Sequence record: NC_007827.1 | Source: Escherichia phage NC29 | Direction: 5' to 3' (one strand) | DNA length: 6,259 bases | In this document: piece after piece, positions 2,323 to 6,259 of the stretch | How positions within the stretch are numbered: the first letter of the stretch is position 1 | Layout: every line of letters begins with the position of its first letter | Position numbers and translations under genes: made by a program | Notes under the pieces: model-generated | Seen by the model: only the letters and a program-made list of their open reading frames with translations | What the model was told of the DNA's origin: nothing | The model's database searches: none

Positions 2323-2479
2323 GCAGCTTATGTTTTTGACTAAAGCTGACTTTACCAATGATGATGAAAAATGGCTTAATGCCTTTGGTAATTTGCTCCG
2401 TCAGTGGTTTCAGATTGAGGATTGGAAAGGTAATCACAAAAAATTGCTTGACGATTTGAAAAACAGGCATTATATTTAA
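2273..2479 (+). CDS. C: protein C (DNA replication switch / packaging)
   Basis: ATG 2273 with AGGAG (2261-2265) at 7-nt spacing; 68 aa; ...TKADFTNDDEKWLNAFGNLLRQWFQIEDW resembles phiX174 gpC ...KTDALDEEKWLNMLGTFVKDWFRYESH. The track ORF starts at GTG 2243; ATG 2273 preferred. Confidence 0.8.
   Translation: MLSSTRYYASYRATLTKQLMFLTKADFTNDDEKWLNAFGNLLRQWFQIEDWKGNHKKLLDDLKNRHYI
2448..2476 (+). promoter_or_regulatory. sigma70-like promoter at the 3' end of gene C (pD-like): TTGACG - 17 nt - TATATT
   Basis: -35 TTGACG 2448-2453 (5/6), 17-nt spacer, -10 TATATT 2471-2476 (5/6) overlapping the last codons of C; best promoter match I found in the window; pD lies within C in phiX174. Confidence 0.5.
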
Positions 2480-2712
2480 CTCATAGATAAATGAAGCAGT
2501 GGTGCAAAGTAGTTTATCTAAGTGGTAAGTTCAGTGAAGGGTGACCCGCTCTAAGTAGCTGAAGGGTGTTGGATGTAAGGACTCCGCGATTGACTGGTTT
2601 ATACTGGAACACTATCGGGTCAGTGAAGTGGCTGCTGAGAAATAGCCCTCTAGCTTTACGAAGACTAGGCTACATCGCGAACACCATTGTTACTTTTTTA
2701 TGGAGGATTTAT

Positions 2713-3280: not shown

Positions 3281-4564
3281 ATGTCAAATGTACAAACTTC
3301 CGCTGAGCGTATCCCTCATGACCTGTCTCATCTGGTTTTTGAAGCAGGCAAAATTGGTCGTTTAAAAGTTGTTTCTTGGACTCCTGTTGTTGCAGGTGAT
3401 TCTTTTGAGCTTGATATGATTGGCGCTATTCGCCTCTCCCCGCTTCGTCGTGGTCTTGCTGTTGACTCTCGCGTTGACTTGTTCACGTTTTATGTTCCTC
3501 ATCGTCATGTATATGGTGAGCAGTGGATTGAGTTTATTAAGGAAGGTGTCAATGCTCCACCGTTGGCTCCTGTTCAGTGCTCTCGTGGTTGGGATAGTGC
3601 GCAGTATCTCGCTACTATTCCGTCTTCTAACTTAAAGGTTCCTAAGTTCCTTCATCAAGGTTACTTGAACATTTACAATAACTATTTTAAAGCTCCGTGG
3701 ATGGATGACTTGACTTATGCCAACCCATCTAATATGGAAGGTGAAGATGTTCGTTTTGGTGTTCGTGCATGTAATTTAAAAACTATCTGGACTGCTCCGC
3801 TTCCTCCAGATACTGAGACTTCTCATTCTATGGAGACCGAGACCAACTCCATTGACATTATGGGTTTACAGGCCGCTTATGCTCAATTACATACCGAGCA
3901 GGAGCGTGATTACTTCATGACTCGTTATCGTGATATTGTTAACGAATTTGGTGGTAGTACTTCTTATGATGCGGATAATCGTCCTTTGCTTGTTATGCAT
4001 TCTGAGTTCTGGGCCTCAGGCTATGACGTCGACGGCACCGACCAAAGCTCTCTCGGTCAGTTCTCCGGTCGTGTTCAGCAGACGTTTAAGCATTCAGTAC
4101 CGCGATTCTTCTGTCCTGAGCATGGCACTATGTTCACACTCGCATTGGTCCGCTTCCCTCCGACTCATGAAATGGAGATGCATTACTTAGTTGGTAAAGA
4201 AAATTTGACTTATACTGATCTGGCTTGTGATCCTGCTTTGATGGCTAACTTGCCTCCGCGTGAGGTTAATATGTCTCAGTTCTTCCATTCTGGAAGTGCT
4301 AGTGCTAAGTTTAAGATCGCTGAGGGTCAGTGGTATCGTATGCAGCCTGACCGCGTTGCATTGCCGTATAACTATCTTGATGGTTTTCCGTTCTATAGTG
4401 CGATTCCGTCTCATGATATTAAGCAGCGTGTTCTGGTTAATACTGATAACTATGATGAGGTTTTCCAGTCTATGCAGCTTGCACACTGGAATATGCAGAC
4501 TAAGTTTAACTGCACGATTTATCGTAATATGCCGACCACTCGTGATTCTATTATGACCTCTTGA
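3281..4564 (+). CDS. F: major capsid protein F
   Basis: 427 aa; long blocks match phiX174 gpF (MSN.QT.AER.PHDLSHL, LRLSPLRRGLA.DS.VD.FTFYVPHRHVYGEQWI, QGYLNIYNNYFKAPWM, SIDIMGLQAAYA.LHT.QERDYFM.RYRD, SYDADNRPLLVM, GYDVDGTDQ.SLGQFSGRVQQT.KHSVPRFF.PEHGTMFTLALVRFPPT, TTRDSIMTS). Confidence 0.95.
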   Translation: MSNVQTSAERIPHDLSHLVFEAGKIGRLKVVSWTPVVAGDSFELDMIGAIRLSPLRRGLAVDSRVDLFTFYVPHRHVYGEQWIEFIKEGVNAPPLAPVQCSRGWDSAQYLATIPSSNLKVPKFLHQGYLNIYNNYFKAPWMDDLTYANPSNMEGEDVRFGVRACNLKTIWTAPLPPDTETSHSMETETNSIDIMGLQAAYAQLHTEQERDYFMTRYRDIVNEFGGSTSYDADNRPLLVMHSEFWASGYDVDGTDQSSLGQFSGRVQQTFKHSVPRFFCPEHGTMFTLALVRFPPTHEMEMHYLVGKENLTYTDLACDPALMANLPPREVNMSQFFHSGSASAKFKIAEGQWYRMQPDRVALPYNYLDGFPFYSAIPSHDIKQRVLVNTDNYDEVFQSMQLAHWNMQTKFNCTIYRNMPTTRDSIMTS

Positions 4565-4570
4565 TTATGT

Positions 4571-4587
4571 GGGGCTTCGGCCCCCTT
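4571..4587 (+). terminator. cUUCGg tetraloop hairpin in the F-G spacer (T_F-like terminator or mRNA 3' stabiliser)
   Basis: GGGGC (4571-4575) / TTCG loop / GCCCC (4580-4584), then CTTT; followed by SD TAAGGA 4588-4593, 7 nt before the G ATG; near-duplicate of the J-F module. Confidence 0.35.
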
Positions 4588-4600
4588 TAAGGATTTGATT

Positions 4601-5146
4601 ATGTTTCAAGTTTATGTAGCTAAGCATGTTGCTCCTTTTACTTCTATGAACCGTACCTTTTCTATCTCTCCTGCTGCTGCCCCGCAGGTTGTCAATTCTG
4701 GTGAGATTGTTGCAGGTCGTTCTACTTTTCGTATTGCTTCCTCTATTGGTTCTGCTTCTAATGGTAATGGTTTCGCATTCGTTCAGATGATGGACCCTAA
4801 CTCTCCTGATTCTCAACAGGTTTTCTCTGTTGCTGCGTCGCTATCTTTTAGTGTTGACTCGAATTATGTTCCTTGCGTTGTTCGTTTTGAAAGTAGTTTC
4901 TCTCAGCCTGGTCAATTTGCTATTGCTGAGGCTGATTTTATTCCGGTTGAGTCGTCAGCTCTTTCTGCTCGTGCGCTTAGCGTTCGTGATTGTGTTACTG
5001 TTGATGTTAAGCCTCGCGCTGAAGGTAATAATGTTTTTGTTGGACTGTTCTTGTCTTCTGCCGCCGCTAATGCTGGTAATGTTACTGGTGTCATTTCTAT
5101 GGCTCAGGTTGACCATGAAGTTACAGCTTTGCAGCCTCTTAAATAA
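4601..5146 (+). CDS. G: major spike protein G
   Basis: 181 aa from ATG 4601 (track ORF starts at TTG 4595); MFQ... N-terminus and CVVRFESS, DCVT.DV.PR..GNNV.VG, and C-terminal LQPLK match phiX174 gpG. Confidence 0.9.
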   Translation: MFQVYVAKHVAPFTSMNRTFSISPAAAPQVVNSGEIVAGRSTFRIASSIGSASNGNGFAFVQMMDPNSPDSQQVFSVAASLSFSVDSNYVPCVVRFESSFSQPGQFAIAEADFIPVESSALSARALSVRDCVTVDVKPRAEGNNVFVGLFLSSAAANAGNVTGVISMAQVDHEVTALQPLK

Positions 5147-5160
5147 AAGGCCGCCGCACT

Positions 5161-5256
5161 CTCGGTTATATGCCTGCCCAGTGTAGGGCGGACCGAGCCG
5201 TACGGAGATACCCGTGAAACTAGGAACGTGGAAGGCGTTAGCCGCCTTCCCTCCTG
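5161..5256 (+). other. candidate complementary (-) strand origin: three consecutive stem-loops in the GC-rich G-H spacer
   Basis: Hairpins: CTCGGT 5161-5166 / ACCGAG 5192-5197 enclosing 5174-5179 / 5186-5191; ACGG 5202-5205 / CCGT 5212-5215; GGAAGGCG 5230-5237 / CGCCTTCC 5243-5250 (perfect 8-bp stem, 5-nt loop); CTG at 5254-5256 just 3' of the last hairpin. G4-type phages prime at a multi-hairpin origin with DnaG alone. Confidence 0.4.
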
Positions 5257-5281
5257 CTAAGCCCAAAGGAGACTTTCAGCT

Positions 5282-6259
5282 ATGTTAGGTGCCGTTGTTG
5301 GTGGTATTGCTTCAGCCTTAGCCGGTGGAGCAGCTTCTAAGTTGTTTGGTGGTAAGCCTGCCTCTCAGGCCGCTACCGAATCCGCTGGCCTTTCTAATGG
5401 TCAAGGTGTTATTGGTATGGACCAAGATGCCGGTATTCAGTCCGCTATTCAGGGTTCAAATGTCCCAAATGGTCAGATTCCCGCTCCTACTACTACAGGT
5501 GGCGTTATGTCTGATGCTGGTAATATGATTAAGAATGCTGGTAAAGATTTGCTTGATGGTGTTATGACTGCCGGTAGTGACCGTGTTAAGCAGGCTTTGA
5601 TTGACAGATTGGGTGGTAATAATGCAAAGAGACAAGGAAAAGCAACCCGTGATTACTTGGCTGCAGCCTTCCCTGAACTCAATGCATGGGAACGTGCTGG
5701 AGCTGTTGCTTCCGGCTCCGGCTTGGAATCTTCCAGTCAGGACCAGCAGAAAGAGTTGATGCGAATGCAGCTGGACAATCAGAAAGATATTGCGAAGATG
5801 CAGATGCAGAATAATTTGCAGATTGCTGGTATTCAGTCCGCTACTTCTCGTCAAAATACGAAGGATTCTGTTTATGCTCAGAATGAGATGCTTCAGTACA
5901 ATCAACGTGAGTCACAGGCACGTGTTGAGTCTATCCTTGCCAACACTAACCTTACGGATAAACAGGCTACCCATGAAATCATGAGGATGGCCCTTACTCG
6001 TGCTCAGGAGACTGGTCAGCATTTGACTAACTCTCAGATTATTGCTTTGGAGAAAAAGGTTTATGCAGAAATTGGAAAAATTCATCAAGATACTCAAAAC
6101 TCTCGCTATGGTAGCTCTCAAGTTACTGCTGCGGCGAAAGATGTTACGAATATGATTACCGATGCCGCCTCAGGTGCTGCTGATTGGGCCTCTCAGCAAT
6201 GGAATTCGTTCTTCAAGGATGGTAAGTCTAATGGCATTCCTCTTAACACCAGAAAATAA
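5282..6259 (+). CDS. H: minor spike / DNA pilot protein H
   Basis: 325 aa; N-terminus M.GA..GGIASALAGGA.SKLFGG and internal TRDYLAAAFPELNAWERAGA, IAGIQSATSRQNTKD.VYAQNEML.Y match phiX174 gpH; AGGAG-like AAGGAG 5266-5271 upstream; stop TAA is the last three bases of the window. Confidence 0.9.
   Translation: MLGAVVGGIASALAGGAASKLFGGKPASQAATESAGLSNGQGVIGMDQDAGIQSAIQGSNVPNGQIPAPTTTGGVMSDAGNMIKNAGKDLLDGVMTAGSDRVKQALIDRLGGNNAKRQGKATRDYLAAAFPELNAWERAGAVASGSGLESSSQDQQKELMRMQLDNQKDIAKMQMQNNLQIAGIQSATSRQNTKDSVYAQNEMLQYNQRESQARVESILANTNLTDKQATHEIMRMALTRAQETGQHLTNSQIIALEKKVYAEIGKIHQDTQNSRYGSSQVTAAAKDVTNMITDAASGAADWASQQWNSFFKDGKSNGIPLNTRK

What the first reader, a model, noticed from the sequence alone, without database searches (positions are those of the whole stretch)
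5147..5281. GC-rich three-hairpin G-H spacer: candidate primase-dependent complementary-strand origin
Against a T-rich genome this 135-nt spacer is visibly GC-rich and folds into three successive stem-loops (5161-5197 compound hairpin, 5200-5217, and a perfect 8-bp stem at 5230-5250). A CTG triplet (5254-5256), the trinucleotide recognised by E. coli DnaG, sits immediately 3' of the last hairpin, so a primer starting there would be copied back through the stem. G4-type phages use a multi-hairpin origin primed by DnaG alone; my recollection is that alpha3/St-1-type phages carry it between G and H, but I am not certain. The hairpins could alternatively or additionally act as a G terminator.
Basis: partly seen in the sequence, partly recalled or inferred. 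Interest (0 to 1): 0.55.

Follow-up and report, generated by a model that had tools for sequence, protein, structure and literature searches.

The report
Known G4-type primase origin, alpha3-like phage
The GC-rich spacer between genes G and H of this alpha3-like microvirus is the classical "G4-type" start site where the host primase DnaG makes the primer for the second DNA strand; this element has been known since 1978-79, so the finding is correct but ordinary.

Summary
The window is a complete alpha3-like microvirus genome (Alphatrevirus, about 92% identical to NC3, ID32 and WA13). The 135-nt G-H spacer (5147-5281) is real. It is the most GC-rich 135-nt stretch of the genome. It holds the perfect 8-bp hairpin at 5230-5250 and the CTG at 5254-5256, as described.

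Over 118 aligned columns it is 94-96% identical to the G-H spacers of alpha3, St-1 and phiK. The dnaG-dependent negative-strand origins of those phages were sequenced by Sims, Capon and Dressler in 1979. The spacer is also 75-78% identical to the F-G spacers of G4 and ID52. GenBank annotates the 28-nt RNA primer and the complementary-strand origin at the homologous G4 positions.

By homology, DnaG should start at T5255 and copy back through hairpin I.

Comparison of 21 sequences changes two details of the anatomy:
- The 5' domain is better supported as a long-range helix, 5149-5155 with 5187-5194, which has two compensatory pairs.
- Hairpin II is weak; only CGG/CCG is conserved.

No terminator-like site is present.

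Verdict: observation confirmed, interpretation supported, element already known, low interest.

A side observation may be newer: a roughly 190-nt insertion at 2464-2697 is a candidate structured leader RNA shared with kuraviruses.

The parts
5144..5146 (+). TAA stop codon of gene G (major spike protein); the origin block begins immediately after it
   Evidence: ORF 4595-5146; homologous gene G annotated in alpha3, St-1 and phiK
5147..5281 (+). G-H intergenic spacer. It holds the complementary-strand (minus-strand) origin on the viral strand, followed by the ribosome-binding site of H
   Evidence: GC 0.593, the highest 135-nt window in the genome
5149..5194 (+). Stem-loop III in its comparatively supported form: long-range helix GGCCGCC (5149-5155) with GGGCGG-A-CC (5187-5194), A5192 bulged
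   Evidence: All 7 pairs are kept in 21/21 sequences. Compensatory double changes occur at 5152/5190 (C-G to T-A in alpha3, L006, ID32, L018) and at 5153/5189 (G-C to A-T in NC28 and Lilleven). This helix is part of the MFE in 4 of the 5 G4-like sequences, G4 included, where it is 9 bp long; in NC19 it is 3.6 kcal/mol above the MFE
5161..5197 (+). It is mutually exclusive with the long-range helix
   Evidence: It is the MFE in the window, by 1.4 kcal/mol over the long-range form. No pair shows a double change, and T5162-A5196 exists only in the window
5201..5214 (+). Conserved block TACGGAGATACCCG shared with G4-like origins. It contains weak stem-loop II (A5202-T5215, C5203-G5214, G5204-C5213, G5205-C5212, loop AGATAC)
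   Evidence: Only CGG/CCG is conserved in 21/21 sequences. The A-T pair is specific to the window. G4's 6-bp stem II (CGGAGA/TCTCCG) is not conserved in the alpha3 clade
5230..5250 (+). Stem-loop I: GGAAGGCG TTAGC CGCCTTCC, the template of the primer RNA
   Evidence: Perfect 8-bp stem. It is 100% paired in 21/21 sequences, with an A-T to C-G compensation at 5233/5247 in the five G4-like sequences. Its sequence is identical in alpha3, St-1 and phiK
5235..5242 (+). GCGTTAGC, the GCGNNAGC 'mini-hairpin' motif inside stem-loop I
   Evidence: PMC13037366. Across the 21 sequences only the N positions vary (TT, CA, TA, AA, T, A)
5254..5256 (+). 5'-CTG-3' primase initiation triplet; predicted primer start opposite T5255
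   Evidence: Invariant in 21/21 sequences. It is aligned with G4 3996-3998, where the annotated primer ends at 3997 and rep_origin is 3998. The CTG rule is stated in PMC6783573
5228..5255 (-). Predicted template span of a full-length 28-nt primer, 5'-pppAGGAGGGAAGGCGGCUAACGCCUUCCAC-3' (inferred by homology)
   Evidence: G4's annotated primer template 3970-3997 gives AGUAGGGACGGCGGCUUUCGCCGUCCAU; the window equivalent was computed
5266..5284 (+). Shine-Dalgarno AAGGAG (5266-5271) and ATG (5282-5284) of gene H, downstream of the origin block
   Evidence: Sequence; ORF 5282-6259; gene H annotated in relatives

Best explanation
The G-H spacer is the origin of complementary-strand (minus-strand) DNA synthesis of this alpha3-like microvirus. 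It is a member of the G4-type, primase-only origin family.

Proposed mechanism:
1. The circular viral (+) strand enters the cell and is coated by host SSB.
2. The GC-rich origin keeps its secondary structure: stem-loop III (5149-5155 with 5187-5194), a weak stem-loop II around 5202-5215, and stem-loop I (5230-5250).
3. DnaG primase therefore binds here without DnaB or the PriA primosome.
4. DnaG starts RNA synthesis opposite T5255 of the CTG at 5254-5256.
5. It copies 3'->5' along the template through stem-loop I. The primer is up to about 28 nt, predicted 5'-pppAGGAGGGAAGGCGGCUAACGCCUUCCAC-3'.
6. DNA polymerase III holoenzyme extends the primer around the circle to give the double-stranded replicative form.

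Shown here: the sequence, its homology to experimentally mapped origins, conservation of the CTG and stem I, and covariation in stems I and III.
Inferred by homology: the priming itself, the start site and the primer sequence.
For: 1. The window is an alpha3-like genome, about 92% identical to NC3, ID32, NC35 and WA13.

2. Over the origin block the spacer is 94.9% identical to alpha3, 95.8% to St-1 and 94.1% to phiK. It is 74.6% identical to the F-G spacer of G4 and 78.0% to that of ID52.

3. In a whole-genome blastn against G4, the origin block (77.8%) is better conserved than the D-F region (73%), A (70%) or H (68%). The neighbouring gene G does not align at all. This points to strong purifying selection on non-coding DNA.

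4. NC_001420 annotates the G4 RNA primer at 3970-3997 and the origin at 3998. These positions align with window 5228-5255 and with the CTG.

5. The CTG is invariant in 21/21 sequences. Stem I is paired in 100% of cells, with one compensatory pair. Stem III has two compensatory pairs. Slid-register controls drop to 36-52% paired with no double changes.

6. Literature:
- G4ori supports priming with primase plus SSB only, starting at the T of a CTG located 3' of three stem-loops, with a primer of up to 28 nt (PMC6783573).
- St-1 and alpha3 Hairpin I carries GCGTTAGC in an 8-bp stem at the origin, and Sims, Capon and Dressler 1979 is cited for the dnaG-dependent origins of St-1, phiK and alpha3 (PMC13037366).

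7. All genes are on the + strand and that strand is T-rich (0.321), as expected of the packaged viral strand.
Against: - No experiment exists for this particular genome.
- Single-sequence folding statistics are weak: z = -1.86, and an 8-bp hairpin is expected by chance about once per genome.
- G4's 6-bp stem-loop II is not conserved in the alpha3 clade; only CGG/CCG remains.
- In the window, the structure that competes with stem-loop III is 1.4 kcal/mol more stable than the covariation-supported one. Three window-specific substitutions (C5162T, and AT to TG at 5215-5216) contribute to this.
- The text of Sims et al. 1979 could not be read. Only its title and the description in a review were available.
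Confidence: 0.93

Rival explanations
1. At the RNA level, the hairpins act as a transcription terminator or attenuator, or as a 3' stabiliser of the G message. This could replace the origin function or add to it.
For: The spacer follows the G stop codon directly, and a GC-rich 8-bp hairpin would also form in the mRNA. From my own knowledge, not checked here: phiX174-like phages have weak terminators after several late genes.
Against: No terminator-like site was found in 4500-5600 on the + strand apart from an unrelated one at 5386-5403. Hairpin I is followed by CCTCCTGCTAAGCCC, which has no T-run. In G4 the same module lies upstream of G rather than downstream of it, so its conservation cannot be tied to terminating G. 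The invariant CTG and the invariant loop bases have no explanation under this model.
Confidence: 0.08
2. It is a phiX174-type primosome assembly site: a PriA (n') recognition hairpin that requires PriA, PriB, PriC, DnaT, DnaB and DnaC before DnaG can prime.
For: It is a structured intergenic element on the viral strand of a member of the Bullavirinae, the subfamily that includes phiX174.
Against: A blastn search with the spacer found only alpha3-like and G4-like genomes (29 records). None of the several hundred phiX-like records in the collection matched. The element is homologous to origins that are primed by primase plus SSB alone.
Confidence: 0.02
3. It is a translational control element for gene H, with spacer structure modulating access to the H ribosome-binding site.
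For: The H Shine-Dalgarno sequence (5266-5271) lies 16 nt downstream of hairpin I. The MFE includes a small hairpin over 5260-5281.
Against: The conserved blocks end at about 5265. The segment bearing the ribosome-binding site is the least conserved part of the alignment. In G4 the module precedes a different gene, G. Nothing in the covariation analysis involves the ribosome-binding site.
Confidence: 0.04
4. It is a chance GC-rich spacer with no specific function.
For: The fold z-score is only -1.86. An 8-bp hairpin and CTG triplets are both expected by chance.
Against: The spacer is more conserved than the flanking coding genes across two phage genera, and at two different genomic positions. 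Three base pairs have compensatory changes. The homologous site in G4 is experimentally defined.
Confidence: 0.01

Closest known systems
Negative-strand (complementary-strand) origins of phages alpha3, St-1 and phiK (Sims, Capon and Dressler, J Biol Chem 1979; cited in PMC13037366)
   Same: The genomic position is the same (G-H spacer). Over 118 columns the sequences are 94-96% identical. Stem-loop I (GGAAGGCGTTAGCCGCCTTCC), the CTG and the flanking AAGCCC are identical. The phages belong to the same genus, Alphatrevirus.
   Different: There are a few point differences. Three are unique to the window: C5162T, and AT to TG at 5215-5216. All three add base pairs to the local hairpins. No functional difference is implied.
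Phage G4 origin of complementary-strand synthesis (G4oric; GenBank NC_001420 primer 3970-3997, rep_origin 3998)
   Same: - The element is homologous, at 75-78% identity.
- The order of the three domains is the same.
- The CTG has the same spacing 3' of an 8-bp stem-loop I.
- The loop motif GCGNNAGC is shared.
- The long-range stem III with a bulged A is shared.
- By literature, both use primase plus SSB-only priming.
   Different: - In G4 the element lies between F and G rather than between G and H.
- Stem I carries C-G instead of A-T at one pair.
- The loop is AAAGC instead of TTAGC.
- Stem III is 9 bp instead of 7 bp.
- G4 has a clear 6-bp stem II (CGGAGA/TCTCCG), which is absent from the alpha3 clade.
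G4-type single-strand initiation signals ('G sites') of plasmids such as R1/R100 (from my own knowledge, not checked here)
   Same: These are hairpin-containing single-stranded DNA sites where DnaG primes without a preprimosome.
   Different: They are found in plasmids, and they were not compared here. The relationship is functional analogy or distant similarity only.
phiX174 primosome assembly site (PriA/n' site) and the RNA-polymerase-dependent minus origin of M13/fd
   Same: Both are structured intergenic elements on a viral single strand that start complementary-strand synthesis.
   Different: The enzymology differs: the PriA primosome for phiX174 and host RNA polymerase for M13/fd. No sequence similarity to phiX-like genomes was found, and there is no promoter-like site on the + strand of the spacer.

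Membership tests
G4-type primase-dependent complementary-strand origin | Sequence homology to experimentally mapped origins (G4; alpha3, St-1, phiK) | tested here: met
   94-96% identity to alpha3, St-1 and phiK; 74.6% to G4 and 78.0% to ID52 over 118 columns. A blastn search hits the G4-like F-G spacer only.
G4-type primase-dependent complementary-strand origin | 5'-CTG-3' initiation triplet a few nucleotides 3' of stem-loop I | tested here: met
   The CTG at 5254-5256 is invariant in 21/21 sequences. It is aligned with G4 3996-3998, the end of the annotated primer and the rep_origin. The CTG rule is stated in PMC6783573.
G4-type primase-dependent complementary-strand origin | Stem-loop I: a stable GC-rich hairpin that serves as primer template | tested here: met
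   Perfect 8-bp stem at 5230-5250. It is 100% paired in 21 sequences, with one compensatory pair, A-T to C-G. The loop fits GCGNNAGC.
G4-type primase-dependent complementary-strand origin | Stem-loop II | tested here: inconclusive
   Only a 3-bp CGG/CCG core is conserved. The window has 4 bp plus a wobble pair (-2.4 kcal/mol). G4's 6-bp stem II is not conserved in the alpha3 clade, although the sequence TACGGAGA(T/C)AC is nearly invariant.
G4-type primase-dependent complementary-strand origin | Stem-loop III (the 5' domain) | tested here: met
   The long-range helix 5149-5155/5187-5194 is paired in 21/21 sequences and has two compensatory pairs. It is part of the MFE in 4 of the 5 G4-like sequences, G4 included. 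In the window a competing local hairpin is 1.4 kcal/mol more stable.
G4-type primase-dependent complementary-strand origin | Lies in an untranslated spacer on the packaged viral (+) strand | tested here: met
   It lies between the G stop (5146) and the H start (5282). All genes are on the + strand, which is T-rich.
G4-type primase-dependent complementary-strand origin | Primer synthesis with SSB plus DnaG alone (rifampicin-resistant, independent of DnaB and PriA), with a unique primer 5' end | not testable with these tools
   This needs in vitro priming and 5'-end mapping. It is established for G4 (PMC6783573) and, going by the title of Sims et al. 1979, for St-1, phiK and alpha3.
Rho-independent transcription terminator | GC-rich hairpin immediately followed by a T/U run | tested here: not met
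   No terminator-like site in the spacer. The tail after hairpin I is CCTCCTGCTAAGCCC.
phiX174-type primosome assembly site | Similarity to the phiX174-group intergenic PriA recognition hairpin | tested here: not met
   The spacer matches no phiX-like genome in the phage collection. All 29 matches are alpha3-like or G4-like. This is a test of sequence only.
Rfam RNA families | Match to any curated structured-RNA model | tested here: not met
   No hit in the spacer at E <= 1. This is expected for a DNA-level element.

The most novel reading that the evidence does not exclude
The 5' domain of the origin could be a two-state element. One state is the covariation-supported long-range stem III (5149-5155/5187-5194). 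The other is the competing local hairpin (5161-5197). The two are nearly isoenergetic across the alpha3 clade. The three window-specific substitutions (C5162T; AT to TG at 5215-5216) tip this genome toward the local fold and a stronger hairpin II, which could tune SSB phasing or primase loading. The conserved GCGNNAGC mini-hairpin register in stem-loop I might likewise be a functional alternative conformation.
Probability: 0.1. Interest if true: 0.3.

Novelty: already known. Interest (0 to 1): 0.1.

Why it matters
The result lets the G-H spacer of this genome be annotated with confidence as the minus-strand origin. The predicted primer start is T5255, and the spacer should not be treated as dispensable or as a terminator. 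It adds no new biology, because G4-type origins in alpha3-like phages have been textbook material since 1979. The small gain is comparative. Covariation in 21 sequences supports stem-loops I and III, shows that stem-loop II is not structurally conserved between the two clades, and shows that only the N positions of the GCGNNAGC loop motif vary.

Tried and rejected
After filtering for the stem II/III motifs, no microvirus locus was left.

2. The IMG/VR loci L017 and L019 matched the hairpin-I pattern. They lie inside ORFs of 836-895 aa in unrelated contigs, so they were rejected as chance matches.

3. Rfam has no family for the spacer, and no tRNA was found.

4. The terminator idea was rejected.

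5. G4's stem II pairing (CGGAGA/TCTCCG) was projected onto the alpha3 clade by inspecting the alignment. At most 2 of the 6 pairs can form there, so it was rejected for this clade.

6. An extension of stem III by CACT/AGTG (5157-5160/5180-5183) appears in the constrained fold of the window. It is broken in L006 and L021 and absent from G4, so it was not adopted.

7. The primary papers could not be read. Fiddes et al. 1978 (PMC411412) is not held. Searches for Kodaira's alpha3 papers and for work on G4-type single-strand initiation signals returned nothing useful.

8. For the side observation at 2464-2697, E. coli genomes, plasmids and two IMG/VR pattern scans gave no matches.

Full report
**What the window is.** The 6259-nt window is a complete alpha3-like microvirus genome (Bullavirinae, Alphatrevirus). 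It aligns end to end with NC3, ID32, NC35, WA13, WA45 and ID21 at about 92% identity, and with alpha3, phiK and St-1 at about 85%. All major ORFs lie on the + strand, including F at 3281-4564, G at 4595-5146 and H at 5282-6259. That strand is T-rich (T 0.321). The + strand is therefore the packaged viral strand.

**Check of the observation.**
- G ends with TAA at 5144-5146 and H starts at ATG 5282, so the spacer is 5147-5281, 135 nt.
- Its GC content is 0.593 against 0.444 for the genome. No other 135-nt window is as GC-rich.
- GGAAGGCG/CGCCTTCC (5230-5237 and 5243-5250, loop TTAGC) is a perfect 8-bp inverted repeat. It is the only one of that quality in the genome.
- CTG lies at 5254-5256.

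By chance criteria alone this is unremarkable. The z-score is -1.86. A perfect 8-bp hairpin is expected 0.84 times per dinucleotide-shuffled genome, and CTG occurs 130 times. The case rests on homology and conservation.

**Homology.**
- Over the origin block (118 alignment columns) the spacer is 94.9% identical to alpha3, 95.8% to St-1 and 94.1% to phiK. In all three the block lies between G and H.
- It is 74.6% identical to the F-G spacer of G4 and 78.0% to that of ID52.
- In a sensitive whole-genome blastn against G4, the origin block (77.8%) is better conserved than D-F (73%), A (70%) or H (68%). The adjacent gene G does not align at all.
- The module sits on opposite sides of gene G in the two genera, so it has been relocated as a unit.
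- A blastn search of the phage collection with the spacer finds only alpha3-like and G4-like genomes, and no phiX174-like ones.

**Link to experiment.**
- GenBank NC_001420 annotates 'RNA primer of replication' at G4 3970-3997 and 'origin of compl. strand synthesis' at 3998.
- The template ATGGACGGCGAAAGCCGCCGTCCCTACT gives the primer AGUAGGGACGGCGGCUUUCGCCGUCCAU. The next base is the G of the CTG.
- These columns align with window 5228-5255 and with CTG 5254-5256. This predicts a start opposite T5255 and a primer AGGAGGGAAGGCGGCUAACGCCUUCCAC.
- PMC6783573 states that G4ori allows primer synthesis with primase and SSB only. Synthesis starts at the T of a CTG located 3' of three stem-loops, and the primer is up to 28 nt.
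- PMC13037366 describes Hairpin I of St-1 and alpha3, with GCGTTAGC in an 8-bp stem, at their replication origins. It cites Sims, Capon and Dressler (1979) for the dnaG-dependent negative-strand origins of St-1, phiK and alpha3.
- The window's hairpin I is identical to theirs.

**Structure from comparison.** I collected 21 distinct sequences, 16 alpha3-like and 5 G4-like.
- *Stem I* is paired in every sequence. It has an A-T to C-G compensation at 5233/5247 in the G4-like group.
- *The 5' domain* has two mutually exclusive pairings.
One of its pairs exists only in the window.
  - A long-range helix, GGCCGCC (5149-5155) with GGGCGG-A-CC (5187-5194, A5192 bulged), is paired in 21/21 sequences. 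It has two compensatory pairs: 5152/5190, C-G to T-A in four sequences, and 5153/5189, G-C to A-T in NC28 and Lilleven, which have different sequence backgrounds.
  - Slid-register controls fall to 36-52% paired with no double changes.
  - In the G4-like sequences this helix is 9 bp long. It is part of the MFE in four of the five, G4 included, together with a 6-bp stem II and stem I. The exception is NC19, where the long-range form is 3.6 kcal/mol above the MFE.
  - In the alpha3 clade the two forms are usually within about 1-3 kcal/mol of each other, and up to about 6 in individual sequences. In the window the local form wins by 1.4 kcal/mol, helped by the window-specific C5162T.
  - I therefore take the long-range helix as the homologue of G4 stem-loop III and the local hairpin as a competing fold.
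- *Stem II* is weak. Only CGG/CCG is conserved. The window gains A5202-T5215 and T5201·G5216 through its unique AT to TG change. G4's CGGAGA/TCTCCG stem is not conserved in the alpha3 clade, yet the sequence TACGGAGA(T/C)AC is almost invariant in all 21 sequences. This suggests recognition of the sequence rather than of a stem. That is an inference.
- *The loop of stem I* varies only at the N positions of GCGNNAGC or GCGNAGC (TT, CA, TA, AA, T, A). This is consistent with the mini-hairpin motif described in PMC13037366.

**Mechanism.** The steps below are inferred by homology, except where a call is cited.
1. SSB coats the incoming viral strand, but the origin hairpins persist.
2. DnaG binds the SSB-origin complex. 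The literature reports two primase molecules per origin.
3. DnaG starts at T5255 and transcribes through stem-loop I.
4. DNA polymerase III extends the primer to form the replicative form.
5. No PriA primosome is needed, unlike in phiX174.

**Rivals.**
- A terminator for G is not supported. There is no T-run after hairpin I and no terminator-like site. In G4 the module lies upstream of G, not downstream.
- A phiX-type primosome assembly site is not supported, because there is no similarity to phiX-like genomes.
- Control of H translation is unlikely, because conservation ends before the ribosome-binding site.

**Verdict.** The element is already known, and this is simply its copy in a new alpha3-like genome. 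Interest is low.

**Side observation.** The window is about 190 nt longer than its relatives because of an insertion at 2464-2697.
- The insertion lies between a promoter-like site (2448-2476) and the start of gene D.
- It is 75-79% identical to unannotated stretches of about 75-kb E. coli kuraviruses. In each kuravirus locus whose downstream gene is annotated, that stretch also lies directly upstream of an ORF on the same strand.
- An RNAalifold consensus of five sequences has 61 pairs, 16 of them with compensatory changes.
- There is no Rfam hit and no match in E. coli genomes, plasmids or IMG/VR pattern scans.
- This looks like a structured 5' leader exchanged between unrelated phages. It may deserve its own follow-up.

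Noticed in passing
window 2464-2697 (between the end of the 78-aa ORF at 2479 and the gene D start at about 2714): About 190 nt here are absent from all alpha3-like relatives, which have about 45 nt at this position. Window positions 2493-2649 are 75-79% identical to unannotated stretches of about 75-kb E. coli kuraviruses (MN03, vB-EcoP-XT32, KarlSchell_Bas89, SDYTW1, FS2B). Where the downstream gene is annotated, those stretches also lie directly upstream of an ORF on the same strand. The RNAalifold consensus of 5 sequences has 61 pairs, 16 with compensatory changes. There is no Rfam hit, and no match in E. coli genomes, plasmids or IMG/VR pattern scans. The single-sequence fold z-score is only -0.15. 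This is a candidate structured 5'-leader RNA transferred between a microvirus and podoviruses.
   Followed up: partly
window 2448-2476: A sigma-70-like promoter match (TTGACG, 17-nt spacer, TATATT; 10 of 12) lies immediately upstream of the insertion, so the inserted element would be the 5' leader of the gene D transcript. In the pairwise alignment, similarity to the kuravirus sequence already begins around the -10 hexamer.
   Followed up: partly
window 5235-5242 and the homologous positions in 20 other origins (alignment A2, columns 102-109): The loop of stem-loop I always fits GCGNNAGC or GCGNAGC. Only the N positions vary (TT, CA, TA, AA, T, A), and the loop bases A, G and C are invariant. 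This fits the 'mini-hairpin' alternative conformation proposed in PMC13037366, or direct sequence recognition.
   Followed up: partly
window 5162 and 5215-5216: Three substitutions in the origin are unique to this genome: C to T at 5162, and AT to TG at 5215-5216. All three create extra base pairs in the local hairpins (T5162-A5196, A5202-T5215, T5201·G5216). The first helps make the local fold the MFE in the window.
   Followed up: partly
window 5146-5270 compared with G4 3890-4012 (L010): The origin module lies between F and G in G4-like phages and between G and H in alpha3-like phages. It is better conserved at the nucleotide level than any neighbouring gene, and gene G itself does not align. 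The window's F-G spacer is only about 30 nt (4565-4594).
   Followed up: yes
window 4024-4037: A short near-palindrome (TGACGTCGAC/GTCGACGGCA, 90% complementary) lies inside gene F. It is the only other inverted repeat reported by the short-loop scan. It is probably chance.
   Followed up: no
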